DNA of 64,000 nucleotides from Gammaproteobacteria bacterium AqS3 (GCA_001750645.1 MEIF01000001.1:9179-73178), one strand, 5' to 3'. Shown: positions 1 through 28,875, counted from the stretch's first letter. Numbers and translations are program-made. Notes: generated from the letters alone by a model not told the origin.

Positions 1-2474
1 CTGATGGGAGTATAAAGATCTACTTCGACTTCAGGGGCGTGGATCGAGACCACCAGAGAATATCGCGCCTCCCCGTTGTAACGTTCCAATTTGGGTCTGG
101 CTTTCCACCAGCCCTGTGCCGGACAAACACCAATAGCCCCTCTGTTCGCAAGTTCGATGGCGGTGCCCTTCCAGATGTCCGAATGTATTGAGCCCTTATG
201 CCGGCTTTTTGTTCCAATCATCCAGCCGGTGTCATGATCCGCAACTGTTTTCCACTCTTGTTCACGCGCCTGTCTATTGATTCGCTTGTGGAAGTCTAGT
301 TTTGATTCCTCTGCACGTTTTACGTCATATCGCAGGCCATGAGAGTTATAGCCATAGCGGCCAGAAAAACCTCTTGCCGATGGATTGGGCTCAATAAAGT
401 ACGAAAGCGTAACCCGCATCTCCACTTCCGTATCTCCCAAAGCCTCCAACTCTTGTGAAGGCCAAGGAAGACTGTGAAGATGCATATTTCCTAAAGTTGG
501 GGCCGCACTGCCTTGTCGCTTGAAAGGATGCAATCGATCTTCACGAATCATAGTGAGCGAGTTTTGAACGCTCCACATTGCGCGCTGAAAATCCGGCACC
601 CCAAAACCGCAGCAGCGAACAAGTTCGGTCATGTCTTTCTTTGAAGGACGTTGAGGATTGGAAAGAAACATTTGACGCATTGCATCGGTCCACTCGGCAG
701 AGTGAACGATTAGCGCCCGAACTGTCTCCGGCCAAAGATTCGGATACTCGGCCATCAATTGTGCCGCCATTCGCGCCGCAAGCGATGTTGCGACACTAGT
801 CCCGTGTGAAGTGACAAACGGCCTCTCTTGCAACTCATAATTTGCAGTAAGAAGGCCCAAGCTCGCCTTGGGTTCAGCGTATGGTTTGTCATAGATGTCT
901 GTAACCGCTGCATTGCCCCCCTCGAGCACCACATCAGGTTTAAGCGGCCATTGCTTGTCCCAATTCAGCGAAGTCGTGCTGAAAGGGCTTAGGCCGCCTG
1001 CTTCGGCGATTGGCTGATAACCTTCAGCATCTGAATCCTTTATATGAACAAGATCAGTCGCCGCACCGACAGCCAGCGCGTTCCAACTCTGAGCCGGATC
1101 GTGAACCCCATCTGTTTTGTTGCTATCGGGATAGTTGAGCATGAACTCACTATCAGCATTTCCTGCGGAAACTATAAATAGTCGCGGAACCCCCTCATTC
1201 TCTTCCGCACCCGAAGCCAATCGATCAATGACTGCCGACCACGCAGATGGCCGTCCACGATCACGATCATCATCGGTGGTGATTGCCATGCTGAATACTC
1301 GACGTCGATAGGGAGCCGTAATACTCGGACGAGCCACAGCTTGAATAGTCAGGTTGCCATGAAAATTTGCGTCGCCCACATTGCCCTCGCGTTGGGGAAG
1401 AAGTTTTACGGATTCAAGACGGTGAATAATTTGGATTGTTCGGTCTGATGCCAGAGCTTCGGTCAAATCGCCCATCATGGCAAGCCCCGCCATTTCAGTG
1501 CCATGCCCATCACCATCTTCAGCAGATCCATTCGGGCCAATTGCATGAGCATCTATTGGCGAAAGCACAGTGGCAAGCAGAGGATGCCCATAGTTCACTC
1601 CCGTATCAAGAATACAGACATGCGGCACTTCTTCCCCTTCCGCAGGCACCGTTATCCGGTCAAACAGTTCGTTAAGGCGGTCTATTTGCTCCTTGCGCGG
1701 CAATACATTAAAAAACTCCGCAGTCCTCTTCGCCCGCCTCAACTCGGCGATGCTGTTCAAAATCTGGATCGACTGTTTCATTGCACCAACCGAACCGCAG
1801 ACAAGAAGCACAGTGCGCTCTGGGAATTGAAGTTCGCCGGGTGCAATCCGAAAACCCTGCTTTTTTGCGAGCCGCCTGAAGCTTTCTGTGACCGGAGCCC
1901 TGCCATCTCTCACAGGAAGCCAGACCTCCCACCAGAGCTCCTCCTCATCTGATGTGGGGAATTCCTCCAAATCATCTGTCCATAGAGCCTTGAGCGCGGC
2001 TGTGCGAATTTTGGAGATCGCATTGAGCAATTTTCCATTCCTTGGCCTTTTCTTGCCGTCCTTTGACTTATCCAAATACGCATGGATCAGATTCTCAAAC
2101 ATATCCAGTTTGCCATCTGGAATAAACACTGTCGCTATCGTGCGTTTTTTCTCATGACGAACATTTAATAGCTCAATGCCGGCACGCTCTCGGGTCAGGG
2201 AATTGAATGCAAGCTCAACATTTTTATAGCTCTCAAACTGCACCCGAAGCCCAAGACCCTCGACAAGCCCCTTGGACTGCTGTTCTTTGCGGGCAGCTTC
2301 GGCATGAGAGCGCAAACCTTTAATCTGACTCAGCAGCTTTGCTCCATGCTTATTCCGTTGGCGATCCGGCACGTCAGACCCGCCGCCGCCTCTCTGCGGA
2401 GATTGGAAGGGCTCTGTTTGAGGAATTCTTTTAAGAATGAAATGCCGATTACGCTTTTCGTCTGATTCAGCCAT
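1..2474 (-). CDS. Subtilisin-like serine peptidase (S8) with an N-terminal domain of unknown function (~255 aa) and a C-terminal extension. The 3' end lies beyond the window start. IetS-like.
   Basis: I translated the minus strand myself and found all S8 motifs in one frame: D in HVCILDTGV, H in DGDGHGTEMAG, N in VSAGNADSEF, S in SHGTSVATS. Start is ATG at 2472-2474, 15 nt downstream of and in frame with the ATPase stop. In the supplied bases the frame breaks at ~775-797 and again at ~719-721, and the two 1-nt changes compensate. The ORF track implies an uninterrupted frame here. This ORF is not in the supplied track. Confidence 0.8.
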   Translation of the reverse strand, partial: MAESDEKRNRHFILKRIPQTEPFQSPQRGGGGSDVPDRQRNKHGAKLLSQIKGLRSHAEAARKEQQSKGLVEGLGLRVQFESYKNVELAFNSLTRERAGIELLNVRHEKKRTIATVFIPDGKLDMFENLIHAYLDKSKDGKKRPRNGKLLNAISKIRTAALKALWTDDLEEFPTSDEEELWWEVWLPVRDGRAPVTESFRRLAKKQGFRIAPGELQFPERTVLLVCGSVGAMKQSIQILNSIAELRRAKRTAEFFNVLPRKEQIDRLNELFDRITVPAEGEEVPHVCILDTGVNYGHPLLATVLSPIDAHAIGPNGSAEDGDGHGTEMAGLAMMGDLTEALASDRTIQIIHRLESVKLLPQREGNVGDANFHGNLTIQAVARPSITAPYRRRVFSMAITTDDDRDRGRPSAWSAVIDRLASGAEENEGVPRLFIVSAGNADSEFMLNYPDSNKTDGVHDPAQSWNALAVGAATDLVHIKDSDAEGYQPIAEAGGLSPFSTTSLNWDKQWPLKPDVVLEGGNAAVTDIYDKPYAEPKASLGLLTANYELQERPFVTSHGTSVATSLAARMAAQLMAEYPNLWPETVRALIVHSAEWTDAMRQMFLSNPQRPSKKDMTELVRCCGFGVPDFQRAMWSVQNSLTMIREDRLHPFKRQGSAAPTLGNMHLHSLPWPSQELEALGDTEVEMRVTLSYFIEPNPSARGFSGRYGYNSHGLRYDVKRAEESKLDFHKRINRQAREQEWKTVADHDTGWMIGTKSRHKGSIHSDIWKGTAIELANRGAIGVCPAQGWWKARPKLERYNGEARYSLVVSIHAPEVEVDLYTPI

Positions 2475-2489
2475 CTGATGCGTGAAACT

Positions 2490-3497
2490 CTAGCGTCTCA
2501 GTTTTTGTGCATCAAGATGTTGCGAGGTCTGCAGTCGCTCTTCCAAGGCCCGCCGAACATCACACTCCCTGACCCTCTGGATATTATCAATCAGCGCCTC
2601 TTTTAAAACTTCCTCCGAAACACGGGACACTTCGTCATAACTCAGACCTGCGGCCTTGTTTGCAAGCCGCTTCCAGGACATGCCTTTAATCGCTATTTGC
2701 TCAAGCCTGGATTTGAGCAATGAGGCAATGCGAGTTTCATCGGGCAACTCGTAATGCAAAACGTTGTCAAAACGGCGGAAAAGCGCGTGATCCAAAATTT
2801 CGGGATGATTGGTCGCTGCAACGATCAAGCTGTGTGACACATCCTGCTCGATCATCTGCAGAAAGCTGTTCAAAATACGCCTCGCCTCGCCGATGTCGTT
2901 TTTATTACTGCGCTGCGAGCCTATGGTGTCGAATTCATCAAAGAAATATACGCCCCGTGTTTGGCTCGTCGCCTCAAACACCTGACGAAGTTTGGCGGCA
3001 GTCTCGCCCATGTACTTGGTTATCAAACCGTCCAAACGAACCTGGAACAGCGGCAAATTAAGCTCTCCGGCCAACACTGATGCCGTCATGGTTTTCCCCG
3101 TGCCGGGCGCACCCACCAATAAGAGCTTGCGCCTTGGGCTGAGTCCGTGAGCGCGGATTTTTGATGCCTGGCGCTGCTCTCGGATCACTCGTTTAAGTTG
3201 CCCCGCCAAGTGATCATCAAGCACCATTTCCACCAGCCGGCTCTTTGGGTGGCTGGCCGTAAGAATTCCGTCCAAAGCACCACGAGGGCGACTGATTGGA
3301 AGTGTCTCTGCCCTGTGCAGAGGCCAGCTCCGACGTTCCCTGGCTTGATCGATGAGATCCCGCAACTCCTTCGCGAGTTTGCCGTGACCGCGCTTCGCCT
3401 CGTGCGCTGCGACCTGCAGAGCCACAGAGAAAAAGTGCTCGTCATCTCCTTCAAGATGCGACTTCAAGATCGCCTTTAGCTGACTTGCGTTTGCCAT
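2490..3497 (-). CDS. AAA+ ATPase, IetA-like
   Basis: Walker A GAPGTGKT and Walker B VYFFDEFD. The second region of homology is SLIVAATNHPEILDHALFRRFD. The gene sits immediately upstream of the S8 gene on the same strand and in the same frame. Confidence 0.85.
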   Translation of the reverse strand: MANASQLKAILKSHLEGDDEHFFSVALQVAAHEAKRGHGKLAKELRDLIDQARERRSWPLHRAETLPISRPRGALDGILTASHPKSRLVEMVLDDHLAGQLKRVIREQRQASKIRAHGLSPRRKLLLVGAPGTGKTMTASVLAGELNLPLFQVRLDGLITKYMGETAAKLRQVFEATSQTRGVYFFDEFDTIGSQRSNKNDIGEARRILNSFLQMIEQDVSHSLIVAATNHPEILDHALFRRFDNVLHYELPDETRIASLLKSRLEQIAIKGMSWKRLANKAAGLSYDEVSRVSEEVLKEALIDNIQRVRECDVRRALEERLQTSQHLDAQKLRR

Positions 3498-3509
3498 GTT
3501 CTGATTTCT

Positions 3510-3701
3510 CTATCCCCTGAGTGCCTTGAACTGAGCACCTGCCTTGCATTGTCTACCAATTGGTAGAGTCTTGGCAATCCGTGCAAGTTTCTCAATATTC
3601 GGCTGAATGGATTCAGCGCCTGCCAAAGCCGGGCAGAAATCAAAGCCGTGCTGCGGGTTTTTTATCTGTATAAAAACACTGGTGTCCAAGAGATAGGCCA
3701 T
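3510..3701 (-). pseudogene. PIN-domain (VapC-like) N-terminal remnant. A further decayed fragment lies upstream at ~3708-4127.
   Basis: The N-terminus MAYLLDTSVFIQIK is PIN-like but the ORF stops after 63 aa. Adjacent frames show broken continuation, e.g. ...GTLHRDALYLLGYKKLDTFDS at 3708-3800. Confidence 0.35.
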
Positions 3702-4192
3702 CAGATCGGGCAGCCCAGACTGCGTTCCAGGCTGTCAAAGGTGTCGAGCTTTTTATAGCCGAGCAGATACAGCGCATCCCGATGCAGCGTCCCGCCTTCC
3801 AGGACGTTCTCAACCAGGGCGCATGCAAATCGCCTGCTCAACCGAGAGAACGATGCCGCTGCACATCACCAGAATGCCCGCATCTTCAGCGGCGGTGATG
3901 AACTGTTTCAGTGCGGCCTCCCAAGTTCTGCATTTGCTCCGGGTCTCCAGGTCGCAGCTTTCAGAGACGCCGTCGTCCCGATACCGGCCTTGGCGCTCCC
4001 TGCAGATATAGATCATCTCCAACAGATCCGGGCCGGGGTGCCGCAGCTGCCGGTTGTGCAGCGCCCGAAAGTCGGGGGCCGTCAGACGTTCTTCGGGAGG
4101 GGTGTCCACGCTCCAACCATCCAACAAGCATTTGCGACCGCATCAACTGCCAGGCGGTTTCACCGTCAGACTGTACGTTGAAGTCTAGAAGT

Positions 4193-4579
4193 CTATTTGG
4201 ACTTGGCCAGCAACCCGACGGCGGCGATCAGCGGAATGACCGTCCAAAGAATCGGAGCCGGTCCTTGCCACATCACGGGATCGTAAAAAAGAGCCATCCA
4301 GTAGGTGTTGATGCCGATGCCGACCACCATGGCGGCTGCGATCCATCCCAGCAATTTGTTGCCGGGGATGAAGGCTGAACAGGCGAACAGGGCGCTGACG
4401 CCCAGCATGTGAACCACGTCGTTGTGCCAGGAAAACGTCAGCATGGCGGTGACGTTGTTGGGCAGATCTGACGCAGCCAGCGGGTTGAGCAGCCTGGGAA
4501 TGCCGACGATTTCGTGAAACAACGCCGCCGCAAAACAAAACACAGCGCAGAGGCAATAACAGATTTTTTGGATGTTCAT
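4193..4579 (-). CDS. hypothetical 4-TM membrane protein
   Basis: 128-aa ORF with four hydrophobic helices. No family was recognised. Confidence 0.35.
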   Translation of the reverse strand: MNIQKICYCLCAVFCFAAALFHEIVGIPRLLNPLAASDLPNNVTAMLTFSWHNDVVHMLGVSALFACSAFIPGNKLLGWIAAAMVVGIGINTYWMALFYDPVMWQGPAPILWTVIPLIAAVGLLAKSK

Positions 4580-5295
4580 TTTTTTCTCCCGGCAAAAACA
4601 GAAAACATTATGCCAATCAAGCTCAACTCATCTGGCAGCCCGATCAAAGGGGCTTGCATGCCATTCGGCAGTCAATTCTCAGCCTCGTCGCTGGGATAGG
4701 GATAGCGCTCATCATCAGGGTTCGGCAGACTCGCCGGGCCGCGATAAGACAGCCATCGGTTTTCGCCGGGGTCGTAGCAGGCCTTCTGCCCCGCCAGATC
4801 CAGGCGGAAAAGTATCAGCGCCCCCTCAAAATGTAGCCGCTTCAAAACCTCTGCCACAGCACTCGCCGATATTCCAGCAGGAAGCGGCAGCCGAATGCGG
4901 TCGAGAATGCGAAGGCTGTCCTGCTCCGGGTCGGAAATGCAGAACTCAAGGCAGTCGCCCTGTCCGGGAGTGGGCGACATCCTGAAAAATGCTGCATCGA
5001 GATCGCTGAATTCAGGTGTGCCAACTTCAGGGTTGCTCGGTTCCGTCAATTTCAAACTCCCCGCGCTGTGCAGAATCAGTATATAAGCCGCCAAACGATT
5101 TGATTTTCCGGGTGTTGATTTAGAAACAAAAAACCGACAAACGCCTCCCGTCCCCGCCCAGAGCAACCCCCTCACGCGCGCTTGTTGCTGCGCACCAGCA
5201 GGCTGATTTCGGGCAGGTGAATCCGCGTCCTGTCCCAGGGCATCGGCGCCGACTGTTATGGCTCGCCCCTCATAGCCCTGCTTTGGCTGGCGCGA

Positions 5296-5720
5296 GTGAA
5301 GGTTGATGCCGGGCTGGTGCGGGTGCAGCAATACCCCGATATCCGCATCGCCTTTGACGCCACCTCCACCGGGGCGCGCCGGCGCCACAGCGAAGCGCTG
5401 CTCGCCGACGGCAAGCAGATCATCGATCTAACCCCAGCCGTCCACCGCACCGCCCGAGTGCGCTATGGCGAAATCGTCGCGTCTATTAGTTCGCGATCCG
5501 CTGGGACGGGGATGCGGGCGAACATCGACGAATTCACCCGGACCACCGCTGATAATGCGCGACACCGTGTTCTGCCTGTGCGAGGAGACCGACACCACCT
5601 CAAGTAGGACGTGCAGTTTGAGTGCTTCCGCTCCAACAGCCCGCTGCACATCACCGAAATGGACGGCGACTTCACCGGCATCAAAGTGACCGTATTTCAG
5701 GAGGTCGAGGGGGCGGCGAG
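5296..5720 (+). pseudogene. mhpF: acetaldehyde dehydrogenase (acylating) MhpF/DmpF-like remnant, truncated at the 5' end and frameshifted
   Basis: [48 protein letters not shown] and, in a second frame, [10 protein letters not shown] all match the MhpF core in order but are spread across frames. Confidence 0.6.
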
Positions 5721-6472
5721 ATGACCCGCCTCTACATCCAGGACGTCACCCTGCGCGACGGCATGCACGCCATCCGCCACCAATATGACCTAGTGTGCGT
5801 GCGCGACATCGCCCGGGCGCCAGACGAGGCCTGAGTCGACGCCATTGAAGTCGCCCACGGCGACCGACTGTCGGGCTCGACCTTCAACTATGGCTTTGGA
5901 CGGTATGCCGACGAGGTGTGGATCGTCGAGGCTGCGAAGGTGTGCCGGCGGGCGCGGCTGATGAAGAGCTACGGCGCTGCTTGTGTTTATGTCACCGACT
6001 CCGGCGGCAGGCTGACCATCGCGGCGTACGCGAGCGGTATGAGGCGCACCGGCGGATTTTGCGGGGTGACATCGAACTCGAAATTCATGCGCATGAGAAT
6101 TTGTCGGTGTCTGTTGTGAATTCTGTCGTCGCCGTCGAATGCGGGGGGACTCGTGTTGACGCCTCGCTCGCTGGCATGGGCGCCGAAGCCGGCAACTGCC
6201 ACATAGAGGCGTTTATTGCGATGGCCGATCTGCACGGCTGGACGCACAGCTGCGACCTGTTCAAGCAGCAAGACGCCGCCGAGAAACTCGTGCGTCCGCT
6301 GCAGGACCGACCCGTCCAAGTTGATCGTGAGACCCTGATGCTACGCTATGCCGGGGTGTATTCATCCTTCCCGCGCCACGCCGAGGAAGCCACAGAACTG
6401 CACGGACTCGACCCCCGCGACATCCTGGTCGAACTCGACCGCCGCAAAATGGTCGACACCAGGAGGACATGA
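5721..6472 (+). pseudogene. mhpE: 4-hydroxy-2-oxovalerate aldolase MhpE/DmpG-like remnant with internal stop and frame breaks
   Basis: [24 protein letters not shown], then a stop. Further matches follow in other frames: [73 protein letters not shown]. Confidence 0.65.
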
Positions 6473-6574
6473 TTATCGATGTGGTGTTGGATAGGGTTAG
6501 GAGAAGGGATGAAGGAGAGGAGCGGGAGGGGGAGAAGGCTGGCGGGGAGTAGACAGGGCGTTTCTCGTTCTTAA

Positions 6575-8641
6575 TCAGTTGATAAGATGAATCTCAGTCC
6601 CCGACCGCATTATTCTCTGTGGCATCGGGGGAATTTCACGCTCCGATTTAATGGTCGCGGCTCCGTCCTTACCAATCTCTAAATCGTACCGCCTGCCCGT
6701 ACCATCCGAGGCACCTGACAAGCGTCGGCATAACACATCCGCAAGAGCGGAATCTTCGACCACACAAATTATCTGCCTATCATCAAGACAAATTGCTGCC
6801 AACAACTCGATTAAGTGGATCGCCCGAAAATCATCGATATGTTGAACAGGATCATCCAAAATAAGTGTGCGTAAAGGCGTCCAAGGACGAGCCAGATATA
6901 CAGACAATAAAACCGCCAAACCAAGCACACGACGCTGTCCACTACTAAAGAAAAATTGAGGATTAAGTCCTTCACCCACTTCCAGACTTAGAGACCGTCG
7001 CAAGTTTCCACGCATACTGTATTTAATGAAACGCCAGTCATGATGCGGGCGCAAACGCTGGTATAACTCCTCCAGAAGAGGACTAATTTGAGCCAATCGC
7101 TCCTTGGTTATTTCATCCAAAATACTGCGCACACCACGCTCCATAGCTTTTGCCTTATCTAGAGCACTTTCGGATTTTTCCACCTGAAATGCTGCTGCAT
7201 CCACTTCCTTCCTTAAGATTTCCACACGATCCTCAAGCAAAGAAATATTCACGACAGTTTGTGATGCCTCAAGCGTGAGCAATGCCCTTTCCAAATCAAT
7301 GAGACGCTCCCTCTCTGCTGCAACATACTTGTCCGCTGCTTGGGGATCTTGAATGAGCTGAAAATCCAAACCATAAAGTTCAAATACTTCCTTATGCTCC
7401 TGTTGCAAAGAAACAAGACGAGATTCTTCTTCTTGGATCTCAGACCACTTTTCTTGTAGCCGCATTAGTTCATCCGTCTTTTCATTAACTATGTCACGTG
7501 CTTCATCCATTTGCTGCTGGGCAACCGCAAATCCAGCGGAAAGAGATTCCATTCGTTCACGTGCGGATACAAGACCAGCTAAGAACTCTTCATCGGTTCT
7601 TGCAGCCGAACAAAGTGGACAGTTTTCACCATGCAAACCAATCTTTTCACCGTGTTCGACAATCAAAGCAAGCGACGCAGCAAAAGAGTTAGCTTCCTTT
7701 TCAATGCTAAAGATGCGTTGCTTGTCTTCAAAAATATCATCTGCTTCAGCTTTTAATTTCTTGGCGAGTTCAAGCCGATCTTTTACGACTTCTCGAGCAG
7801 CTACAGTTTCTTTTTTATCAAATTCTCTTTGATCCTCCAAAATCTTATAGCCTCGTCTGATCATCTCATTTATGCGTGCAAGATGTCTTTGACCTTCTAT
7901 CAAAGCAGAACGTCCAGAAATAATATACGATGTAATATCTTTGAAATCATCAGATGTTGCAGCATCCAAGGTTTGTTTCGCGACCGCAATATCTTCTGTT
8001 TCAACAATATCCTCTTTTGCTTCAGACAACTGGGCCAATGCATCTGTAAGCTGGTTATGCGCATCGCTATATGCTTTTTGGTTGAGTTTATGTTTAGCTT
8101 TTATATTCTCAAGTATATTTTGGGCTTTAGCTACAAAATCAGTTTTCTGGACAGCACCAAGTGCTGAATGCACGCGTTTAAAATGTTCCGTTTCACTGAG
8201 ATCGAGACCAAGTGCAGAAATCCATTCGTCGCGTATGATCAAAGATTGACAGAGTTGATGAAGAGCATCGTCTGGTTTAACTCTGTAACAGAGAGCATTC
8301 TCGATTTCCTTTAACTCTTTGTCAGCTTTGTTTCCAGATTTTTTTGTTCTGGTAATGGAAAAATTTTTATTGTCGCCATTCTTAAATGATACTGTTACAT
8401 AATGATTATTTGGGCTTCCTTCGCCTCGCCACCATAAATAATCACTAATACTTTCTTTTGCCGATTTTCCGAAAGCATATTTATTGATGGATCCAGTTAG
8501 GGCAAATTCCACAGCATCAAGAAGCGTACTCTTTCCCACACCATTACGCCCAGTGATAACAGTAAATCCCGAACCAAAAGTGACGCGAATTTTTTCGCGA
8601 TATCCACGAAAACCACAGATCTCAACATAATCTAGTTTCAC
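6575..8641 (-). CDS. SMC/Rad50-like ABC ATPase with a long coiled-coil, LmuB/DdmC-like
   Basis: N-terminal Walker A ITGRNGVGKSTLLDAVEFAL. Several hundred residues of coiled-coil heptads. C-terminal signature FFSSGQRRV and Walker B/D-loop LILDDPVQHIDD. It is the last gene of a three-gene operon that begins with a SIR2 protein. Confidence 0.75.
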   Translation of the reverse strand: MKLDYVEICGFRGYREKIRVTFGSGFTVITGRNGVGKSTLLDAVEFALTGSINKYAFGKSAKESISDYLWWRGEGSPNNHYVTVSFKNGDNKNFSITRTKKSGNKADKELKEIENALCYRVKPDDALHQLCQSLIIRDEWISALGLDLSETEHFKRVHSALGAVQKTDFVAKAQNILENIKAKHKLNQKAYSDAHNQLTDALAQLSEAKEDIVETEDIAVAKQTLDAATSDDFKDITSYIISGRSALIEGQRHLARINEMIRRGYKILEDQREFDKKETVAAREVVKDRLELAKKLKAEADDIFEDKQRIFSIEKEANSFAASLALIVEHGEKIGLHGENCPLCSAARTDEEFLAGLVSARERMESLSAGFAVAQQQMDEARDIVNEKTDELMRLQEKWSEIQEEESRLVSLQQEHKEVFELYGLDFQLIQDPQAADKYVAAERERLIDLERALLTLEASQTVVNISLLEDRVEILRKEVDAAAFQVEKSESALDKAKAMERGVRSILDEITKERLAQISPLLEELYQRLRPHHDWRFIKYSMRGNLRRSLSLEVGEGLNPQFFFSSGQRRVLGLAVLLSVYLARPWTPLRTLILDDPVQHIDDFRAIHLIELLAAICLDDRQIICVVEDSALADVLCRRLSGASDGTGRRYDLEIGKDGAATIKSEREIPPMPQRIMRSGTEIHLIN

Positions 8642-9213
8642 TTTTGTTCCAACAGCATCTTCGCAATTTCTTCAGAATTTTGATCACCAAGAAATGCATT
8701 CAGAACATCATCGGAGACACTACTCAATCTTGAACGAAACTTATCCTCAAAACCTGCATCTGAGAAAATTGGCTTGGCTTTAATTTCAGTAATAGGTAGC
8801 AAGGCATACTCAATATCTTTTGATGTATTTATATTGACACGAGCAATTTTCCGAGTCAGAGAAAAATCCTCCTCAATCTGTTCAACTTCACGCTGCCTAG
8901 ATTGATCTTTGTCTCCAGTCAAAAAGACAGAATAAACATTCCAAGCTTTATCTCCAGACATACGAAGTGCTGCACTATGCGAACTAAGTGCTTTTTGTTG
9001 TTCAAATTTCCATTTAGAAATAAGCTCTTCCGCAGATGAGAACACATAAATAAAGCCCATAATAGTTGCGCTTTCAAAACAAGTTATTGAATGTGAATTA
9101 TCAGAATACCATGACCAAGTGTCGTAACCAGAACCCCGGAGATATATTTCGGATTGTCTTGCGATATCCATTACAACTCCAACCGTTCTTGAGCTTGTTT
9201 GAAAGTTAACCAC
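8638..9213 (-). CDS. small protein of unknown function, LmuC/DdmB-like by position
   Basis: 191-aa ORF. Its stop overlaps the downstream SMC start by 4 nt (ATGA). It lies between the SIR2 and SMC genes. Confidence 0.5.
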   Translation of the reverse strand: MVNFQTSSRTVGVVMDIARQSEIYLRGSGYDTWSWYSDNSHSITCFESATIMGFIYVFSSAEELISKWKFEQQKALSSHSAALRMSGDKAWNVYSVFLTGDKDQSRQREVEQIEEDFSLTRKIARVNINTSKDIEYALLPITEIKAKPIFSDAGFEDKFRSRLSSVSDDVLNAFLGDQNSEEIAKMLLEQK

Positions 9214-10550
9214 CGCTCCTCAGCGGTCGTTCTCAATATGTTATCCGAACTTCCTCGGCCAATTATATTTCCAGGCATACCAGTCTCCTCAGCTCCCACT
9301 GCAACAAAAATATTAGCCAGGGAAGATGCCGGCGGTTCAACAGGGAAACGCTCTGCCACACTACTTATTGACTCCCCCGCACCATTAATCACTCTGATTG
9401 AATGTTCTTTCAACGTATAGCCCTCTCGCTGCTGTTGCGCACCTGCTTTCCGCAAAAGCAGGTGAAAGCATCCCAACATTTTACTTCTAATCTTGTCTGG
9501 ACATTTTTTAGTTGCAGGCTTCCTATTAGGCACTCCTTCTGCATCTCTACGCCAAGAATACAGGTCTTCGCTACTCAGCGATGAATCAACAGACAGCCAA
9601 TTTTGATTGAAGTCCAATGTAGTTCTCTGCTCAAATTCATCTCGACCTGCTGCCATTAGTTGCCGTAGATAACTCTCAGAAAATGCCCTCCGTAATTCGT
9701 CAAGCACTTCAGCCCCCGAACCCCTCACATGGGCAAAATCAATATTCGGCTGGTGCAGAAGTGCCCAGAGTTCAGGAGCCTTTTCCTCAAGAGCTTTTTT
9801 CTCTAAAAGATCAATCACTGTAACCGATTTCGGATCGGTTCCTTGAAGAGCATCAGCAATAATCTGATTAAGATAGCACCAATCAGACCAGAAACCAACT
9901 ACAAGCAGGTCCTTCTGACTCAGATTAGTTCGCATCCAATTTTTATTTTTTTCAATGCGATCAGAAATGTTTGAATTATCAAGTTGTGATTGTGTCCATA
10001 CAGTGGAAATGCGATCAAGTCTTAAGCAGCCGTGCAACTTCAAGAGCGGGGCTTGAGAGCGAGAATAATTTACCGCTTGTTCTCCATCTAGAGAACCTCG
10101 AAAATCTGCCCCATATTTCTGTGCACCTCGCTCAATTAATTCATCAAAGTTGCAAGAAAGGCAGGCAACAGCCGCTCTTGTGATCAAAAGATCTGCTATC
10201 GCAGAATGACCAAAATTAGGGTGGCTCGCAAATTCGTCCCATGGAACTAAGTTTTCAATGAAGTACACGAGTCCATTCTGTTCTTCATTAGAAAAATGTT
10301 CTGCCAGCGCCTCCAGATTCAGACGAAGTTCAGGTGACATATCTGAATCCGTGCTATCCCGATATTTATCAAAGCATATCTCGGCAATACGACTCGCGCA
10401 AGGCAGATTGCTTGGTTCAGCCATAGACAGACCGGCACCACAAAGCACTACCAATCGGTCAGCATCTATAGATCTCAGCAACCGTTTTCGAATTTTAGGA
10501 CATAACAGAGGCTCATTCATACTTGAAAACTCTTGTCTGAAGCTTCCCAA
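9171..10550 (-). CDS. SIR2-like (SIR2_2 type) domain protein, putative Lamassu LmuA-type effector
   Basis: LVVLCGAGLSMAEPSNLP resembles the GAGxS...P NAD-binding motif, and LLKLHGCL resembles the sirtuin HG motif. First gene of the SIR2 / small / SMC operon. Confidence 0.6.
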   Translation of the reverse strand: MGSFRQEFSSMNEPLLCPKIRKRLLRSIDADRLVVLCGAGLSMAEPSNLPCASRIAEICFDKYRDSTDSDMSPELRLNLEALAEHFSNEEQNGLVYFIENLVPWDEFASHPNFGHSAIADLLITRAAVACLSCNFDELIERGAQKYGADFRGSLDGEQAVNYSRSQAPLLKLHGCLRLDRISTVWTQSQLDNSNISDRIEKNKNWMRTNLSQKDLLVVGFWSDWCYLNQIIADALQGTDPKSVTVIDLLEKKALEEKAPELWALLHQPNIDFAHVRGSGAEVLDELRRAFSESYLRQLMAAGRDEFEQRTTLDFNQNWLSVDSSLSSEDLYSWRRDAEGVPNRKPATKKCPDKIRSKMLGCFHLLLRKAGAQQQREGYTLKEHSIRVINGAGESISSVAERFPVEPPASSLANIFVAVGAEETGMPGNIIGRGSSDNILRTTAEERWLTFKQAQERLEL

Positions 10551-10652
10551 AGTGGCCTATCTTAATCTATCTAGACATTGGAAGGGAAGATATCCAAGCA
10601 ATGAGAGAAAACGATTCTTATATTTGAATGCTATAACTTCTCAGTTTCTGTT

Positions 10653-11174
10653 CTATATATCCAATTTCAGACGAACCTTCTGAACCTTTTTAGATGCCGT
10701 ATGTTCTACTGCAATATAGATATATAGCTTGGAAATATCATGTGGTTCTAGTAATCTCCAAAAGTTTTGCTGGAACATCATCAACCGCATGAAAGTTCCC
10801 GAGGCGAGATTACATGAAAGTTCGCCTTGCACTGTATTAGATGAGAAATCTCCATCCATCAGCCAAAGTCCTAAAGCTTTTTTATGCAATGGCTTATCGA
10901 AAATCTTCATGAAATAATTTGTATATGTATAACATGACACTTTAAGAATTGTCGTGGGCAATCCACTCTTGTTAACTATGGTGATACCAAGAGCTGCAAA
11001 TATAGTTCCATCGGGTAAAGGTTCATCATTATTCCAACTTCCCATGTTTGGTCTAATTTCAATTCGCAGCCGATCTCTTTTTCTATATTCAGCATATATG
11101 TTCCAAGCAAGCGAAATAGTAGCGATAAACACCCCCACCCATGCGGCAATATCTGTATAACTAAATTCTTCCAA
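10653..11174 (-). CDS. small protein with a single N-terminal TM helix. Paralog of 18877..19395.
   Basis: MEEFSYTDIAAWVGVFIATISLAWNIY... Hydrophobic helix at residues ~8-27, then a soluble domain. Unknown family. Confidence 0.55.
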   Translation of the reverse strand: MEEFSYTDIAAWVGVFIATISLAWNIYAEYRKRDRLRIEIRPNMGSWNNDEPLPDGTIFAALGITIVNKSGLPTTILKVSCYTYTNYFMKIFDKPLHKKALGLWLMDGDFSSNTVQGELSCNLASGTFMRLMMFQQNFWRLLEPHDISKLYIYIAVEHTASKKVQKVRLKLDI

Positions 11175-11315
11175 TTTATACTCCTGGTATTTAACTCAAA
11201 CCAATCGGGATGATCAGTTTACCAGTCATCTCGGGATTCAAATAAATCGCTGTAATATCAAAAAGCCTCAGCACAAAATTAATCCAACAGCGAGCATGTT
11301 GCGAATGTAATTACC

Positions 11316-12794
11316 CTAAGAAGTCAACTTTATTAGTCTCTTATATCGCGAGTCATCTTCGAACTGAGGCTGGACTCTTACTATCATTTCAAGACAATCT
11401 TTGAGATGCCCTTTTGATATTTGAGGAACCTTTGCATCAATAATGAGAGCTAAGAAGTCTAAAGTTTCTGCAGGCTTGATTCCACATAACTCTGACTTAT
11501 GCAACTCGTAAATCTGGTCGGAAGGCACATCCGCTGTAATAGGGACCAACCAATCGCGAAGGAGATTTAGTGCTTCGGGAAAGTTCTCATGCGCCGCAAC
11601 ACACAAACGGCCCAGACCTTCAGAAATATCAGCATGTTCATCAGGAGTCAAATTCCCCGGATTTTCTGGCCAAATTGCTTTCAAGTAGGGAGCAATCCGA
11701 TTCAACCAATAATCAGCACGCTGATCACCCGCATCTCTCAGTGTTCTCACTAACGTCTGAGTCACCTTTTGCAGACCATCCGGCGGCAGAAGGCGAGTAG
11801 CCTCGGCCAACTCGGAATTGAGGAAATTACCATCAGGGTTTAGGGCAGTGACAGTGATGAAATCAGCATATTGCCTACCGTGTGTTCCCAGAGCTTGATA
11901 ATGATTTACAGTGTCAAGAACGTTGTGCTTGATAGCCTCCATCAAAGGAGGATAAACGTAGGGGTTCAACAAGAATCCTCTCCAAATCGAGGCTGCTTCA
12001 TCTGGAAATCGATCCCAATCAAACAAAGGAAGCAGATATAAATCTGTCCATTCCTTATCCACAGTAAATAGCGCATCAGCATAGTTGGCAAGTATCACAC
12101 GACCATGGCGGTATTGTTGGATCTGTAAATCACACAACTTGGTGAATACAGGCTCAAGCTCGCTCGGTAACTTTTGACCTTCTTTGGGCGGCCACCGATA
12201 CCACCAACGAAACAGTGCTTCTGTCACATCTCCCACTGGATGATTGATAGCGCAAAAGACAGGATCTTCGCTATGTATCAAGATTTTATGTTCTATGGCA
12301 AGTATTCGCTTTACTAGTGAGAAAAAATGTGTTTCATCTTTTTCAAAGCTTTTGGCCATCAGCCATAACCACCGACTGATTTCCTCGGCAATGTCAGGCA
12401 ATTTATCGTCTGGAATACCAGCCAATAGAACAGCCATTTTGCCCCAAGATTTGTGAATGACCTCCTCCTCAGGCCAAGACTGAAAAGCTTCGTGCCAGAA
12501 CATAAGCCGCCAGTTATCTTTATCAGCCAGCTCACATAAGGCATCAGCTGTCGCATCAAAATCGTCGCGACATTTTTTCCGCCAATCTTCTCGCGCATGC
12601 GTATTGGTGACAGAATGTTTATTGAGCCAAACAATCAGTTTTTGAACTTTAACAGAATGAGATTCATCATTCTTACTTCCCTTAGAGTAACGGCGAGAGA
12701 GCTCCTCAAGCTTTCTCCTAGATTCTTCACTCAAATCTATACCTGAAGCCTTCATCTCTGACAACCTCAACCAGATTTCTCGATCCTTACTCAT
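11316..12794 (-). CDS. C-terminal half of DSR2-like protein, unit 3, helical partner domain
   Basis: Homologous to the C-terminal third of the 1242-aa fused protein and to 14979..16772. Shared blocks are INHPVGxxTEAL..WWYR, KYRHGRV.LA, LLPLF.W and YADFITV.AL. It is in the same frame as the upstream SIR2 ORF, separated by TAG + AAC. Confidence 0.7.
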   Translation of the reverse strand: MSKDREIWLRLSEMKASGIDLSEESRRKLEELSRRYSKGSKNDESHSVKVQKLIVWLNKHSVTNTHAREDWRKKCRDDFDATADALCELADKDNWRLMFWHEAFQSWPEEEVIHKSWGKMAVLLAGIPDDKLPDIAEEISRWLWLMAKSFEKDETHFFSLVKRILAIEHKILIHSEDPVFCAINHPVGDVTEALFRWWYRWPPKEGQKLPSELEPVFTKLCDLQIQQYRHGRVILANYADALFTVDKEWTDLYLLPLFDWDRFPDEAASIWRGFLLNPYVYPPLMEAIKHNVLDTVNHYQALGTHGRQYADFITVTALNPDGNFLNSELAEATRLLPPDGLQKVTQTLVRTLRDAGDQRADYWLNRIAPYLKAIWPENPGNLTPDEHADISEGLGRLCVAAHENFPEALNLLRDWLVPITADVPSDQIYELHKSELCGIKPAETLDFLALIIDAKVPQISKGHLKDCLEMIVRVQPQFEDDSRYKRLIKLTS

Positions 12795-12797
12795 GTT

Positions 12798-14915
12798 CTA
12801 CTCCTCAAACTCTGAATCGTGATTAGCCGGCCCTGCGATAATCGCCTCCTCAAGCCTCTTGAACTCATCTGGATTTAGCCTCTTCGGGAGTACCCTGAGT
12901 AACTCCAGAACTTCAGGTTCACTTTCCGAAGCCCAGAGCCATTTACCCTCCTCTTCCAAAAGCCAATCTAAAGCGATACTAGCAGGGATTGCGTCACCTT
13001 GAGCGGCAGCGAACAACGCGAGCCTTTGAAAAAGCGGGCAAGGTTCAGTCCACCAAGATATTGCCTCAGCAGTCGCCTTATATGTCGACTGCCTTTCCAA
13101 GGCTAGCCAAGCATTACGGATAGGGTCTATCAACGTCATCCAATCGTGAATATTATCATCTCGAGAATGCTCATTGATCGAAGTCTGTCGAATATATACC
13201 AATCCACTTTCTTGATTTGCGGACTCAGTTTTCTGGATAAGATTAAAAGCATTTCGTAATGAATCAGTAAATTCAGGCAGAAGTGTCGGCAACGCCGATA
13301 TCCATTGTTCTTCATTATTAAGCTCCATCAAAGAATCAGTATTTCCGCCTGCCAAAGCAACCTCCCAATAAATCAAAACTCCCTCATCCTCGGGCACTTG
13401 TCCCCTAGCCAATTTATCAAAATCGCGCAACAATATGCGCGGGTTCAGAAGTTTCCGAAGCTCTTGAAGTGAGAATTTAGTCAGCCCATCAAGCCTAAAT
13501 TCGTTACACCAGATCTGAAAAGACCGACTCCGCCCTTCACGTCTAATACTCCTTTCAATCAACCGCTCCCAAAGTTCTCGCATGAACGGATTGAAGCCGC
13601 CTTCATCCCTACTATCATTAGTCTCTCCATCAATCAGCTTATATAGATGCCTGCGAAAAAACCAAGAAAATTTCTCGCGTAATTCACTGCCATCATTGGC
13701 GAGCCATTCCAGCAGTCTTGGATCATTAAAGTGACTAGTTAACCAAGAAATCAGGGGCTTCTGCATTTCATTCGCTGTTCTTTCTTGAACTCGTGTATCG
13801 GTAACGTTCGTTAAAGACTCCTTGAATCTTCGATTTTCAGCCATGGGCTTCAACCAAGCTAAAGAGTGAGCCGGATTCGACTGTGCGAAGCATTCAGATG
13901 GTTTGCCACTAGGATCTCTTAGTACCCATAACATTAAACCGACAAAGTAGCTCTCCGGGGTGTTATTAATAGGGTCGTAATGGACATACTTTTTAACGAT
14001 ATTCACTTTACCTTGCTCTTTTTCATCATAAATTTTTGCCCACTCTTTTAGCGTCTCATGTAGGAGAGTATGTTTAGGATCGGCATAGTACAAAATAGGT
14101 GTGACATTTTTAGCATTCCATTTATCGGCTGTCTGTTCCCTTTCATCAATTTTATGATCTGCAAAAGCAAACATTTCTCTAGTCGGTTCTCCAAGCAGAC
14201 TGTCCGCAGCGAGCGCATCAGTCATGTAACGTATCACTGGATCATTAAGACTATAACCGACAAAGCAAATGATGTATCTACGAAACAACTCGCTCACAAA
14301 ACGAGCCGCCCAACGTTCTGTAAGATATGCCCGACCAAAATCTCCGCTGGAAAGCACCAAGGAATCCAGATCGTCCTCTGTAGGCTCTTGCATCAAAAGG
14401 CCATGCAAATAAACCAGTCCATCCCATCCCTCTTTAGGCACAGGTAATAATGGTGCTTGAAAAGTCTTGGACAGCATCGAACTATCATCATTCATTACCG
14501 TTTCAAATAGACGGTCAAAGTTGGTAGTAACCAAGCGCATGCGGGATTTCTTTTTTGGCTGCTCCCGCGTCTTACTGAGTTTTAACAGTGAATTGTGAGT
14601 TGCAGTCGCATCTGGACAATTAAGTTTGGGCTTCAAAATATCAGGCAGTATGTCTCGCACTTTCTTGCGCCCAAAACGCTGGTTTTTCTCCAACAAATGA
14701 ATGGCACTATCAAATCGCTCCTTATCTATTTCCGATTGTGGCAAAGGGTCATTTGCATCTGAAAACTGATTTACAAGCTGCTGTGCCAAGCAAGCAAAAT
14801 CAGGTAACTTAGCTGAGCGGGATATTCCAGCACCGCAGAAGAACACCACATTGCCCTTCTCATGCTCATCCAATAGATGCTCAGGAATGTCAGGGCCGTT
14901 TTCAGTAAATTGCAT
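12798..14915 (-). CDS. DSR2-like SIR2 (NADase-type) domain protein, N-terminal half of unit 3
   Basis: N-terminal motifs VVFFCGAGIS..LP.F, LVTTNFDRLFE and LVYLHGLL, the SIR2_2 pattern seen in DSR2/ThsA. The C-terminus ends ...ALDWLL..WLW..LLRVL..IIAGP, which is part of the shared linker region. Confidence 0.8.
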   Translation of the reverse strand: MQFTENGPDIPEHLLDEHEKGNVVFFCGAGISRSAKLPDFACLAQQLVNQFSDANDPLPQSEIDKERFDSAIHLLEKNQRFGRKKVRDILPDILKPKLNCPDATATHNSLLKLSKTREQPKKKSRMRLVTTNFDRLFETVMNDDSSMLSKTFQAPLLPVPKEGWDGLVYLHGLLMQEPTEDDLDSLVLSSGDFGRAYLTERWAARFVSELFRRYIICFVGYSLNDPVIRYMTDALAADSLLGEPTREMFAFADHKIDEREQTADKWNAKNVTPILYYADPKHTLLHETLKEWAKIYDEKEQGKVNIVKKYVHYDPINNTPESYFVGLMLWVLRDPSGKPSECFAQSNPAHSLAWLKPMAENRRFKESLTNVTDTRVQERTANEMQKPLISWLTSHFNDPRLLEWLANDGSELREKFSWFFRRHLYKLIDGETNDSRDEGGFNPFMRELWERLIERSIRREGRSRSFQIWCNEFRLDGLTKFSLQELRKLLNPRILLRDFDKLARGQVPEDEGVLIYWEVALAGGNTDSLMELNNEEQWISALPTLLPEFTDSLRNAFNLIQKTESANQESGLVYIRQTSINEHSRDDNIHDWMTLIDPIRNAWLALERQSTYKATAEAISWWTEPCPLFQRLALFAAAQGDAIPASIALDWLLEEEGKWLWASESEPEVLELLRVLPKRLNPDEFKRLEEAIIAGPANHDSEFEE

Positions 14916-14978
14916 TTGAACTTATGGAATCAGGATGTGACTACAAAATAACCGGACAATATTACAGCAAGCCATATC

Positions 14979-18706: not shown

Positions 18707-18876
18707 CTGAATCTAAGAAAATGAAATAGAACCCTACATTTGACAACAAATCTCTTGCAGGCTGTCTATATGTGCTACAGACGAACAGGCAATTCTACAC
18801 CCACTATTTGGCAATTCTCCATAGCACTTAAAACCTTTATTGACCTAAGTAATAGGATCACGCAAAAAACAGAAGG

Positions 18877-20002: not shown

Positions 20003-20050
20003 TCCCTAGCCCGCCCTTAACCATTGGGAGAAAATTTTCTGAATCATTTT

Positions 20051-23779: not shown

Positions 23780-23848
23780 TGGTACTCACCAAAAACAGAA
23801 ACCGAAGGCATATTGAGCAGCAGGCTTTATACATATTTAATCCTCAAT

Positions 23849-26908: not shown

Positions 26909-26918
26909 ATCAACATCC

Positions 26919-28833: not shown

Positions 28834-28875
28834 GGTAACACTCCCAATCGTCCCTCCCGTCTGATACCAAAGTAC

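What the first reader, a model, noticed from the sequence alone, without database searches (positions are those of the whole stretch)
6575..10550. Lamassu/DdmABC-like operon with a SIR2 effector
Gene order is SIR2-like protein (459 aa), small protein (191 aa), then an SMC/Rad50-like ATPase with a long coiled-coil (688 aa). Stop/start overlaps link the genes. This matches the effector / LmuC / LmuB architecture of type II Lamassu (Vibrio DdmA-B-C order), with the nuclease effector swapped for SIR2. The SIR2 motifs here (LCGAGLS, LHGCL) are more diverged than in the DSR2-like array, so two distinct SIR2 lineages coexist in one island.
Basis: partly seen in the sequence, partly recalled or inferred. 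Interest (0 to 1): 0.6.

Follow-up and report, generated by a model that had tools for sequence, protein, structure and literature searches.

The report
SIR2-armed Lamassu defence operon
This is an intact three-gene Lamassu anti-phage cassette in which a Rad50-like DNA sensor and a small adaptor control a SIR2 enzyme expected to destroy NAD+; it is a catalogued but experimentally unstudied variant of a known defence family, so a solid but ordinary find.

Summary
Three co-directional minus-strand genes sit at 6575..10550, linked by TAATG and GTGA stop/start overlaps. The likely true sizes are 449, 177 and 688 aa.

- **688-aa protein:** LmuB (PADLOC E 4.6e-40). It is a Rad50-like ABC ATPase with one CPLC zinc hook at the midpoint of its coiled coil.
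- **177-aa protein:** LmuC/ABC-3C middle component. The window copy scores weakly, but 30 of 31 family members hit the LmuC model.
- **449-aa protein:** an N-terminal SIR2 domain with GAGLS, N124, D126 and H163 invariant in 82 of 82 relatives. Its fold matches the defence NADases DSR2, ThsA and KomC. It also has a ~185-aa C-terminal domain found only behind SIR2.

The trio keeps the same order in all 82 usable loci from several phyla.

Four features match the published "long" Lamassu class: Walker B DD, a single CxxC, the LmuC linker-plus-tail, and the helices/loop/β-sheet CTD. LmuB length (688 aa) is intermediate.

SIR2-type Lamassu has been catalogued since 2022, so this is a new member of a known kind.

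- DUF4297 is the Cap4 nuclease domain, not the LmuA C-terminal domain.
- The neighbouring array is Dsr1, not DSR2.

The NADase, abortive-infection mechanism is inferred, not shown.

The parts
9171..10520 (-). lmuA: SIR2 effector gene, 449 aa from the ATG at 10520. The maximal ORF from the TTG at 10550 gives 459 aa. The GenBank model (417 aa) starts at M33 and cuts off the GAGLS loop.
   Evidence: Pfam SIR2_2 30.3 bits against a cut-off of 24.5
9726..10520 (-). SIR2 catalytic domain of LmuA (residues 1-265).
   Evidence: AF2 model with pLDDT 83.5 and pTM 0.84; Foldseek hits to DSR2, ThsA, KomC and SPARSA SIR2 at E about 1e-8
10425..10439 (-). GAGLS NAD-binding loop (residues 28-32).
   Evidence: G28, A29 and G30 conserved in 81 of 82 relatives; the remaining row is a gap
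10143..10151 (-). N124-F-D126 catalytic Asn/Asp motif of SIR2.
   Evidence: N and D conserved in 82 of 82
10032..10034 (-). H163, the catalytic His in KLHGC.
   Evidence: Conserved in 82 of 82
9174..9725 (-). LmuA C-terminal domain (residues 266-449): helices 269-358, then a small beta module 362-449. The invariant WRRDAEGVP segment (9528..9554) begins at the end of helix 317-328 and runs into the loop that follows. Presumed docking and oligomerisation module.
   Evidence: matches the published description of the long-type LmuA CTD
8638..9171 (-). lmuC: middle component, 177 aa. Globular alpha/beta domain 1-128, low-confidence linker about 129-140, and a short three-helix tail 141-177.
6575..8641 (-). 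lmuB: Rad50/SbcC-like ABC ATPase with a coiled coil, 688 aa.
   Evidence: PADLOC LmuB E 4.6e-40; Pfam AAA_23 and SMC_N; Rad50 head matches in the PDB
8525..8551 (-). LmuB Walker A motif, GRNGVGKST (residues 31-39).
7610..7621 (-). The single CPLC zinc-hook motif (residues 341-344), at the midpoint of the Pro/Gly-poor region 165-520.
6929..6949 (-). ABC signature motif, FSSGQRR (residues 565-571).
6851..6865 (-). Walker B motif LILDD (hhhhDD; residues 593-597).
   Evidence: hhhhDD is the long-Lamassu consensus
6755..6757 (-). E629, which occupies the position of the Rad50 H-loop histidine.
   Evidence: Alignment to P. furiosus Rad50 3qkt; E in 78 of 78 aligned relatives

Best explanation
This is an intact Lamassu-family (ABC-3C) anti-phage/anti-plasmid cassette, lmuA(SIR2)-lmuC-lmuB. 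It has the hallmarks of the 'long' Lamassu class.

Proposed mechanism, by analogy with solved nuclease-type Lamassu:
1. A LmuB dimer, a Rad50/SbcC-like ATPase joined through its zinc hook, works with LmuC to hold a monomeric LmuA inactive by binding its C-terminal domain.
2. When LmuB meets abnormal DNA made during phage or plasmid replication (free ends, palindromic or hairpin intermediates), LmuA is released.
3. Free LmuA oligomerises through its C-terminal domain.
4. Its SIR2 domain then hydrolyses NAD+, collapsing metabolism and aborting the infection.

Shown here: the identity of the three proteins, their translational coupling, strict co-inheritance, conservation of the catalytic residues, and the NADase-like fold.

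Inferred only: the trigger, sequestration and release, oligomerisation, and NAD+ depletion.
For: - **LmuB identity:** PADLOC LmuB at 4.6e-40, 5e-32 and 9.4e-29, far above all other SMC/ABC defence ATPases.
- **LmuB motifs:** Walker A, signature, Walker B and a single CPLC are conserved in 78 of 81 relatives. The CPLC sits at the midpoint of a helix-breaker-poor stretch of about 355 aa.
- **LmuC identity:** 30 of 31 family members hit PADLOC LmuC (best 1.9e-7), and 24 of 31 hit Pfam MComp1 (best 8.2e-6).
- **Effector:** SIR2_2 scores above the Pfam cut-off. GAG, N124, D126 and H163 are invariant across 82 loci. The AF2 model (pLDDT 83.5) matches DSR2, ThsA, KomC and SPARSA SIR2 at E about 1e-8.
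- **Operon structure:** TAATG and GTGA overlaps. The A-C-B order is kept in all 82 informative loci across phyla and in unrelated contexts.
- **Long-type features** described by Haudiquet et al.:
  - Walker B hhhhDD
  - a single CxxC
  - LmuC with a linker plus a short extra domain
  - LmuA CTD made of helices, a conserved charged segment and a beta-sheet
- **Mechanistic template:** sequestration of the LmuA CTD by LmuB2-LmuC, then release and tetramerisation. SIR2-type LmuA is explicitly listed in the family.
- **Setting:** a low-GC defence island with Dsr1 and type III R-M genes.
Against: - No PADLOC LmuA model and no Pfam ABC-3C effector-CTD family matches this effector: 0 of 30 members.
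- The LmuC model has no significant match to any solved structure, including the solved short-type LmuC.
- The window's own LmuC scores are sub-threshold: E 0.0028, and 17 bits against a cut-off of 27.3.
- LmuB is 688 aa, between the published short (~600) and long (~800) means. I did not test class assignment phylogenetically.
- All solved Lamassu complexes are short-type with Cap4 nucleases. For long types the published prediction puts LmuA and LmuC near the LmuB heads, so the geometry of sequestration may differ.
- LmuB has DD in Walker B and Glu in place of the H-loop His, so it may hydrolyse ATP poorly.
- I found no experimental test of any SIR2-type Lamassu.
- Neighbouring defence genes in this island are decaying, so activity in this host is not guaranteed.
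Confidence: 0.82

Rival explanations
1. The ATPase belongs to a different SMC/ABC-type defence or repair system (Wadjet JetC, Gabija GajA/OLD, Septu PtuA, PARIS AriA, MADS mad3, RecF/RecN, housekeeping SbcCD). On this view the SIR2 gene is just a neighbour.
For: Weak N-terminal head or P-loop hits to mad3 (82.5 bits), PtuA (42), AriA (40), GajA (33) and JetC (31) in PADLOC. Sub-threshold hits to SMC, RecF and Rad50 in NCBIfam.
Against: - All those hits cover only the N-terminal head or P-loop region and score far below the LmuB models. One LmuB model aligns end to end.
- No partner genes of those systems are present: no JetA/B/D, TOPRIM, PtuB, AriB or SbcD nuclease.
- The three genes are translationally coupled and co-inherited in all 82 informative loci.
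Confidence: 0.03
2. It is a genuine Lamassu cassette, but the SIR2 domain does not act as a bulk NADase. It could instead ADP-ribosylate or deacylate a specific target (a phage or host protein, or DNA), or make a signalling nucleotide.
For: SIR2-fold enzymes include deacylases and ADP-ribosyltransferases. Weak NCBIfam hits to NAD-dependent deacylases (E about 1e-3, far below cut-off). This SIR2 lineage is distinct from Dsr1 and from the PADLOC SIR2-type LmuA model. No biochemical data exist.
Against: The closest structural matches are all defence NADases: DSR2, ThsA, KomC and SPARSA. The best profile hit in the PDB is the KomC NADase. The literature assumes NAD+ depletion for SIR2 defence effectors.
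Confidence: 0.1
3. The cassette is a non-functional remnant in this genome. It arrived with a foreign low-GC island that is now decaying in a symbiont MAG.
For: - Two of the three adjacent Dsr1 genes are broken, one by an in-frame TAG and one by a frameshift. The type III mod gene is in several pieces.
- dmpF and dmpG fragments lie at the island edge.
- No promoter or terminator stands out above chance.
Against: All three ORFs are full length relative to their families. Every invariant catalytic and structural residue is retained, and the coupling junctions are intact.
Confidence: 0.08

Closest known systems
Lamassu family, SIR2-effector subtype (Millman et al. 2022; Haudiquet et al. 2025, 'long' and 'short' Sir2 Lamassu)
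   Same: Three genes, lmuA-lmuC-lmuB. A SIR2 N-terminal effector on LmuA. A LmuB Rad50-like ATPase. Long-class traits: Walker B hhhhDD, a single CxxC, LmuC with a linker plus an extra domain, and a CTD of helices, a conserved charged segment and a beta-sheet.
   Different: LmuB is 688 aa (the family is about 686), between the reported class means. PADLOC v2 LmuA models do not detect the effector. I could not show whether this exact clade is among those already catalogued, because no supplementary tables are held.
Vibrio cholerae DdmABC / Salmonella LmuACB (short type II Lamassu with Cap4 nuclease; solved structures)
   Same: Gene order effector / middle component / SMC-like ATPase. Presumably the same logic of an effector held by its CTD and released on DNA sensing.
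   Different: The effector is SIR2, not the Cap4/DUF4297 nuclease. The V. cholerae LmuB has no zinc hook, whereas this one has a single CPLC. Short-type CTDs are helical bundles and short LmuC lacks the linker and tail. No detectable sequence or Foldseek similarity of LmuC to the solved chains.
SbcCD / Rad50-Mre11 DNA-end and hairpin processing complexes
   Same: LmuB heads align to Rad50 (E 1e-11), with a coiled coil and a CxxC zinc hook at the apex. Lamassu is proposed to descend from SbcCD.
   Different: No Mre11/SbcD nuclease is present. Walker B DE is DD and the H-loop His is Glu. The coiled coil is much shorter. The partner is a SIR2 effector, and the cassette lies in a defence island.
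Stand-alone SIR2 defence NADases (DSR2, Dsr1, Thoeris ThsA, KomC, SPARSA SIR2)
   Same: The SIR2 fold, the GAGxS / N / H catalytic set, and an expected NAD+-depleting abortive outcome.
   Different: The sensor modules differ: here a separate Rad50-like ATPase and an adaptor, instead of a fused sensor or a TIR- or Ago-derived signal. Only 23% identity to the neighbouring Dsr1 SIR2. No Dsr1 or ThsA profile reaches significance beyond the shared SIR2 core.

Membership tests
Lamassu (ABC-3C) | An SMC/Rad50-like ABC ATPase matching LmuB profiles better than those of other families | tested here: met
   PADLOC LmuB models at 4.6e-40, 5e-32 and 9.4e-29. The next family is mad3 at 1.1e-23, covering the N-terminal ~215 residues.
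Lamassu (ABC-3C) | LmuB Walker A, ABC signature and Walker B motifs are intact | tested here: met
   GRNGVGKST, FSSGQRR and LILDD are present and conserved in about 78 of 81 relatives.
Lamassu (ABC-3C) | A small middle gene (LmuC / middle component) between the effector and the ATPase | tested here: met
   30 of 31 family members hit PADLOC LmuC (best 1.9e-7). 24 of 31 hit Pfam MComp1 (best 8.2e-6). The window copy alone is weak: E 0.0028, and 17 bits against a cut-off of 27.3.
Lamassu (ABC-3C) | LmuA with a variable N-terminal effector domain | tested here: met
   SIR2_2 at 30.3 bits against a cut-off of 24.5. Foldseek matches to defence SIR2 NADases at E about 1e-8. SIR2 is a listed Lamassu effector.
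Lamassu (ABC-3C) | LmuA C-terminal docking domain homologous to known LmuA CTDs | tested here: inconclusive
   A conserved ~185-aa CTD exists and is found only behind SIR2. However, 0 of 30 members hit any PADLOC LmuA model or Pfam CTD family. Structural comparison with solved LmuA was not possible. The architecture agrees with the published description of long-type CTDs.
Lamassu (ABC-3C) | Operon order lmuA-lmuC-lmuB, co-inherited | tested here: met
   TAATG and GTGA overlaps. The same order in all 82 informative loci.
Lamassu (ABC-3C) | Anti-phage or anti-plasmid activity that depends on all three genes | not testable with these tools
   Needs cloning and plaque or plasmid-loss assays. I found no published test of a SIR2-type system.
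'Long' Lamassu class (Haudiquet et al. 2025) | Walker B hhhhDD and exactly one CxxC zinc hook | tested here: met
   LILDD and a single CPLC at 341-344, conserved in 78 of 81 relatives.
'Long' Lamassu class (Haudiquet et al. 2025) | LmuB of about 800 aa | tested here: not met
   688 aa here and about 686 aa across the family. This lies between the reported short (~600) and long (~800) averages.
'Long' Lamassu class (Haudiquet et al. 2025) | LmuC with an extra short domain after an unstructured linker; LmuA CTD of helices, a conserved charged loop and a beta-sheet | tested here: met
   AF2 model of LmuC: globular 1-128, pLDDT 54 for residues 131-140, helices 141-175. AF2 model of LmuA: helices 269-358, invariant WRRDAEGVP at 323-331 (end of helix 317-328 into the following loop), strands 362-438. 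Description. These are predicted structures only.
'Long' Lamassu class (Haudiquet et al. 2025) | Phylogenetic placement of LmuB in the long clade | not tested
Cap4/DUF4297-type LmuA (classical type I/II Lamassu, DdmA) | An N-terminal Cap4 (DUF4297) nuclease domain | tested here: not met
   The only Pfam hit is SIR2_2. This is expected for a SIR2 subtype. DUF4297 is the effector domain, not the CTD.
Dsr1 / DSR2 / Thoeris ThsA | A full-length match to Dsr1, DSR2 or ThsA profiles (a SIR2 domain plus their own sensor domains) | tested here: not met
   Only weak hits to the SIR2 core (ThsA 7e-4; Dsr1 in 2 of 30 members at 0.01). NCBIfam Dsr1 hits only the neighbouring genes.
Wadjet (JetC) / Gabija (GajA) | JetC or GajA profile over the full length, plus partner genes | tested here: not met
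   JetC 31 bits and GajA 33 bits, P-loop only. No JetA/B/D or TOPRIM/GajB genes are adjacent.

The most novel reading that the evidence does not exclude
This roughly 686-aa-LmuB clade could be a mechanistically distinct, intermediate Lamassu lineage.

- Its ATPase core is non-canonical throughout: Walker B is DD and Glu replaces the H-loop His. That would suit an ATP-binding switch more than a hydrolysing motor.
- Its C-terminal docking domain has co-evolved exclusively with a private SIR2 lineage and is invisible to current LmuA models.
- Sequestration might occur at the LmuB heads, SbcD-like, and not at the coiled-coil tip.
- The SIR2 output might differ from simple NAD+ depletion.

If so, it would be a good model for how a DNA-repair complex was rewired to gate a metabolic toxin.
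Probability: 0.15. Interest if true: 0.5.

Novelty: new member of a known kind. Interest (0 to 1): 0.25.

Why it matters
- **Annotation.** The three genes are deposited only as 'SIR2 family protein', 'hypothetical protein' and 'AAA family ATPase'. The deposited effector model starts at M33 and so lacks its NAD-binding loop.
- **Detection gap.** PADLOC v2 LmuA models miss this effector lineage entirely. Yet it occurs in at least 108 species-level genomes across several phyla. Recognising it as Lamassu improves defence-island annotation and shows a gap in one widely used HMM set.
- **Mechanism.** No SIR2-type Lamassu and no long-type Lamassu has been solved or tested biochemically in the literature I could search. 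A compact, highly conserved clade like this one is a reasonable candidate for such work.
- **Limits.** It is an expected member of a catalogued family and does not change how the family is understood.

Tried and rejected
- **Near-identical DNA.** megablast of 6400..11300 found no match in E. coli genomes or plasmids.
- **Single-sequence and profile searches of the PDB.** LmuB hits only Rad50/SMC heads. LmuA hits nothing as a single sequence and KomC/DSR2 as a profile. LmuC hits nothing credible.
- **Foldseek of the LmuC model against the PDB.** No significant hit. The weak hits (E 0.01 or worse) are to restriction-endonuclease-like folds (Mus81-Eme1, Cap4, Nt.BspD6I, Can2). I do not rely on them.
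- **Foldseek of the LmuA model.** The list was saturated by SIR2 hits, so it says nothing about the CTD.
- **Search for other effectors fused to the same CTD.** The exhaustive profile search found only SIR2 fusions. I could therefore not show directly that this CTD is a module shared with other effectors.
- **Krishnan et al. 2020 (the ABC-3C paper)** is not held. The supplementary tables of the Lamassu census are not held or are truncated.
- **Upstream 173-aa ORF as a fourth component.** It is absent from all 83 loci.
- **Nearby IetA-like AAA ATPase as a fourth component.** It is present in only 2-3 species.
- **Promoter and terminator scan.** Nothing above shuffled expectation that marks the operon ends.
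- **tRNA integration site.** No tRNA in 1..40000.

Full report
**Observation.** The window carries three co-directional minus-strand ORFs at the stated coordinates: 9171..10550 (459 aa, TTG), 8638..9213 (191 aa, GTG) and 6575..8641 (688 aa, GTG). These are maximal ORFs. At the first junction the sequence reads GGAGttgTAATGg. An ATG at 9171 overlaps the upstream TAA by one base and has a GGAG five bases upstream. All 30 aligned homologues of the small protein are about 176 aa, and 28 of them begin at this same Met, 'MDI...' in nearly all. The real product is therefore 177 aa. The second junction is GTGA, where the lmuB start overlaps the lmuC stop. The SIR2 gene most plausibly starts at the ATG at 10520, giving 449 aa. 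The deposited GenBank protein (P0001, 417 aa) starts at M33 and so lacks the first strand and the GAGLS loop, which makes it too short.

**Source and setting.** All three proteins are on record with 100% identity from a 109-kb contig of the MAG 'Gammaproteobacteria bacterium AqS3'. They are annotated only as SIR2 family protein, hypothetical protein and AAA family ATPase. The cassette (GC 0.43) lies at the edge of a 40-46% GC island spanning about 6.5-33 kb. The sequence beyond 36 kb is 65-70% GC. The island also holds three tandem Dsr1 genes and a type III R-M system.

**What the proteins are: the ATPase.** The 688-aa protein scores best against PADLOC LmuB models (4.6e-40, 5e-32, 9.4e-29), and one of those models aligns end to end. 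Hits to mad3, PtuA, AriA, GajA and JetC are much weaker and confined to the N-terminal head or P-loop region. Pfam gives AAA_23 and a split SMC_N domain. In the PDB, only Rad50 and SMC heads match. The motifs are:
- Walker A: GRNGVGKST (31-39)
- signature: FSSGQRR (565-571)
- Walker B: LILDD (593-597)
- a single CPLC (341-344)

All four are conserved in about 78 of 81 relatives. Residues ~165-520 are poor in Pro and Gly and rich in charged residues. The CPLC sits in a Gly-rich break exactly at their midpoint, as expected for a Rad50-type zinc hook at a coiled-coil apex. Alignment to P. furiosus Rad50 shows that the catalytic Glu of Walker B is Asp here. It also shows that the H-loop His is replaced by Glu (E629). 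Both changes hold throughout the clade.

**What the proteins are: the small protein.** The 177-aa protein alone gives only weak hits: PADLOC LmuC E 0.0028, and Pfam MComp1 17 bits against a cut-off of 27.3. At family level, 30 of 31 members hit LmuC (best 1.9e-7) and 24 of 31 hit MComp1 (best 8.2e-6). Its AF2 model (pLDDT 85.5) is a globular alpha/beta domain (1-128), a low-confidence linker (~129-140) and a short three-helix tail.

**What the proteins are: the effector.** The 449-aa protein passes the Pfam SIR2_2 threshold. G28, A29, G30, N124, D126 and H163 are invariant in the family alignment. They are kept in every one of 82 loci that has a residue at those columns, down to 37% identity. 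Its AF2 model (pLDDT 83.5, pTM 0.84) matches DSR2, ThsA, KomC and SPARSA SIR2 at E about 1e-8. Beyond residue ~265 comes a conserved ~185-aa C-terminal domain. It consists of helices (269-358) followed by a small beta module (362-449). An invariant WRRDAEGVP segment (323-331) begins at the end of helix 317-328 and runs into the loop that follows.

**Is the trio a unit?** Yes. In L001 and L002/L003 the same SIR2 / 176 aa / ~680 aa trio, with the same overlaps, sits in unrelated contexts. A scan of one genome per species found relatives in 108 genomes. These come from Alpha-, Beta- and Gammaproteobacteria, Acidobacteriota, Planctomycetota, Eremiobacterota and Zixibacteria. Of the 83 loci held, 73 pass a strict adjacency test, and 9 more show the same A-C-B order with partial alignments. 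One of those nine (L042) has an IS-like 450-aa ORF inserted between lmuC and lmuB. The last locus (L079) is cut by its contig end.

Neither candidate fourth component holds up. The 173-aa ORF upstream in the window is absent from all the other loci. The IetA-like AAA ATPase about 3 kb away recurs in only 2-3 species.

**Comparison with the literature.** Lamassu (also called ABC-3C, and DdmABC in V. cholerae) is defined by LmuB, usually LmuC, and a LmuA that has a variable N-terminal effector and a C-terminal docking domain. SIR2 has been a listed effector since 2022. Haudiquet et al. divide the family into short and long classes and report Sir2 effectors in both, acquired independently. They characterise the long class by:
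- Walker B hhhhDD
- exactly one CxxC
- LmuC with an additional short domain after an unstructured linker
- a LmuA CTD with helices, a conserved charged loop and a beta-sheet

All four are met here, from sequence and from the AF2 models. LmuB length is the exception: 688 aa falls between the reported means of ~600 and ~800. I therefore call it long-like, not proven long. No phylogeny was run.

**Membership gaps.** The one defining feature I could not confirm is homology of the CTD to known LmuA CTDs. None of 30 members hits a PADLOC LmuA model or a Pfam CTD family. This includes PDLC03856, a model that the neighbouring Dsr1 SIR2 domains do hit. An exhaustive profile search with the CTD alone retrieved 276 cluster representatives, and the full-length ones listed all share a single ~440-aa architecture. 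I scanned ten distant or odd-length hits. Eight carry SIR2_2 above the Pfam cut-off, a ninth hits it below the cut-off, and the tenth (P0299, 655 aa) has no Pfam match. Within HMM reach, this CTD therefore co-occurs only with SIR2. That fits the published observation that Lamassu components co-evolve, but it does not link this CTD to others. Structural comparison with solved LmuA or LmuC was not informative or not possible.

**Mechanism.** Structures of short, Cap4-type Lamassu show one LmuA held as an inactive monomer through its CTD by two LmuB protomers and LmuC. DNA ends or palindromic replication intermediates trigger release. Free LmuA then tetramerises, and that activates the effector. 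Transposed to this cassette, LmuB2-LmuC would gate a SIR2 NADase whose activation depletes NAD+ and aborts infection. This is what the field proposes for SIR2-type Lamassu. Every step after 'the three proteins are what they are and travel together' is inference. For long types the published predictions place LmuA and LmuC near the LmuB heads. The DD/Glu ATPase core may bind ATP more than it hydrolyses it. I found no experimental report on any SIR2-type Lamassu.

Three corrections apply:
1. DUF4297 is the Cap4 nuclease effector domain, not the LmuA C-terminal domain, so its absence is expected and is not a refutation.
2. The neighbouring array is Dsr1, not DSR2.
3. The effector swap is a catalogued subtype, not a new architecture.

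**Novelty and score.** This is a new, unannotated member of a known kind. Its practical value is better annotation, an exposed gap in one widely used HMM set, and a well-conserved candidate for the first biochemical study of a SIR2 or long-like Lamassu. Interest is 0.25.

Noticed in passing
window 11316..23779 (-): Three tandem Dsr1 paralogues. One is intact (20051..23779, 1242 aa). One is split into overlapping ORFs 16769..18706 and 14979..16835, which implies a frameshift. One is interrupted by a single in-frame TAG at 12798..12800 (ORFs 12798..14915 and 11316..12794, same frame).
   Followed up: partly
window 23849..32558 (-): A type III restriction-modification system. Res is intact (23849..26974, 1041 aa). 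Mod-like ORFs come in four pieces (26919..27779, 27982..28833, 28876..30468, 30867..32558), each covering a different part of the same Mod profile. This suggests duplicated and truncated mod genes.
   Followed up: partly
window 2490..3497 (-); L001 6773..7789: An IetA-like AAA ATPase (PADLOC IetA E 2e-76) with no IetS protease ORF visible next to it. It is 74% identical to an AAA gene lying immediately upstream of lmuA in an unrelated gammaproteobacterial chromosome (L001). That is higher than the 56-61% identity of the Lamassu genes themselves. Among the 83 loci it recurs only in L001/L005, L014 (47%) and weakly in L053.
   Followed up: partly
window 6755..6757 and 6851..6865 (-): The LmuB clade has Glu in place of the Rad50 H-loop histidine and DD in place of DE in Walker B, in 78 of 78 aligned relatives. 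The whole clade therefore has a non-canonical ATPase core.
   Followed up: partly
window 10425..10520 (-): The deposited GenBank protein for the SIR2 gene (417 aa) starts at M33, just after the GAGLS NAD-binding loop that is invariant in all relatives. The public gene model is probably truncated at its 5' end.
   Followed up: yes
window 5296..6472 (+): Fragments of acetaldehyde dehydrogenase (AcetDehyd-dimer) and 4-hydroxy-2-oxovalerate aldolase (HMGL-like plus DmpG_comm) lie in different ORFs, directly against the GC break at the island edge. These look like decayed dmpF and dmpG genes.
   Followed up: partly
window 10653..11174 (-): A 173-aa ORF with a hydrophobic N-terminus lies between Dsr1 and lmuA. 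It has no match in Pfam, PADLOC or NCBIfam, and is absent from all 83 related loci.
   Followed up: partly
window 19382..20002 (-): A 206-aa SieB-like (superinfection exclusion protein B, Pfam E 5e-7) ORF lies between two Dsr1 copies.
   Followed up: no
L042 7969..9321: In a Candidatus Scalinduaceae MAG, a 450-aa transposase-like ORF is inserted between lmuC and lmuB. It is the only locus among 82 in which the cassette is interrupted.
   Followed up: partly
window 33030..36299: At the far edge of the island lie a GNAT acetyltransferase (33030..33467), an HNH endonuclease with a weak PtuB-like hit (33588..34061) and an alpha/beta hydrolase (35259..36299). GC then rises to about 0.68. No tRNA gene occurs in 1..40000 to mark an integration site.
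   Followed up: no
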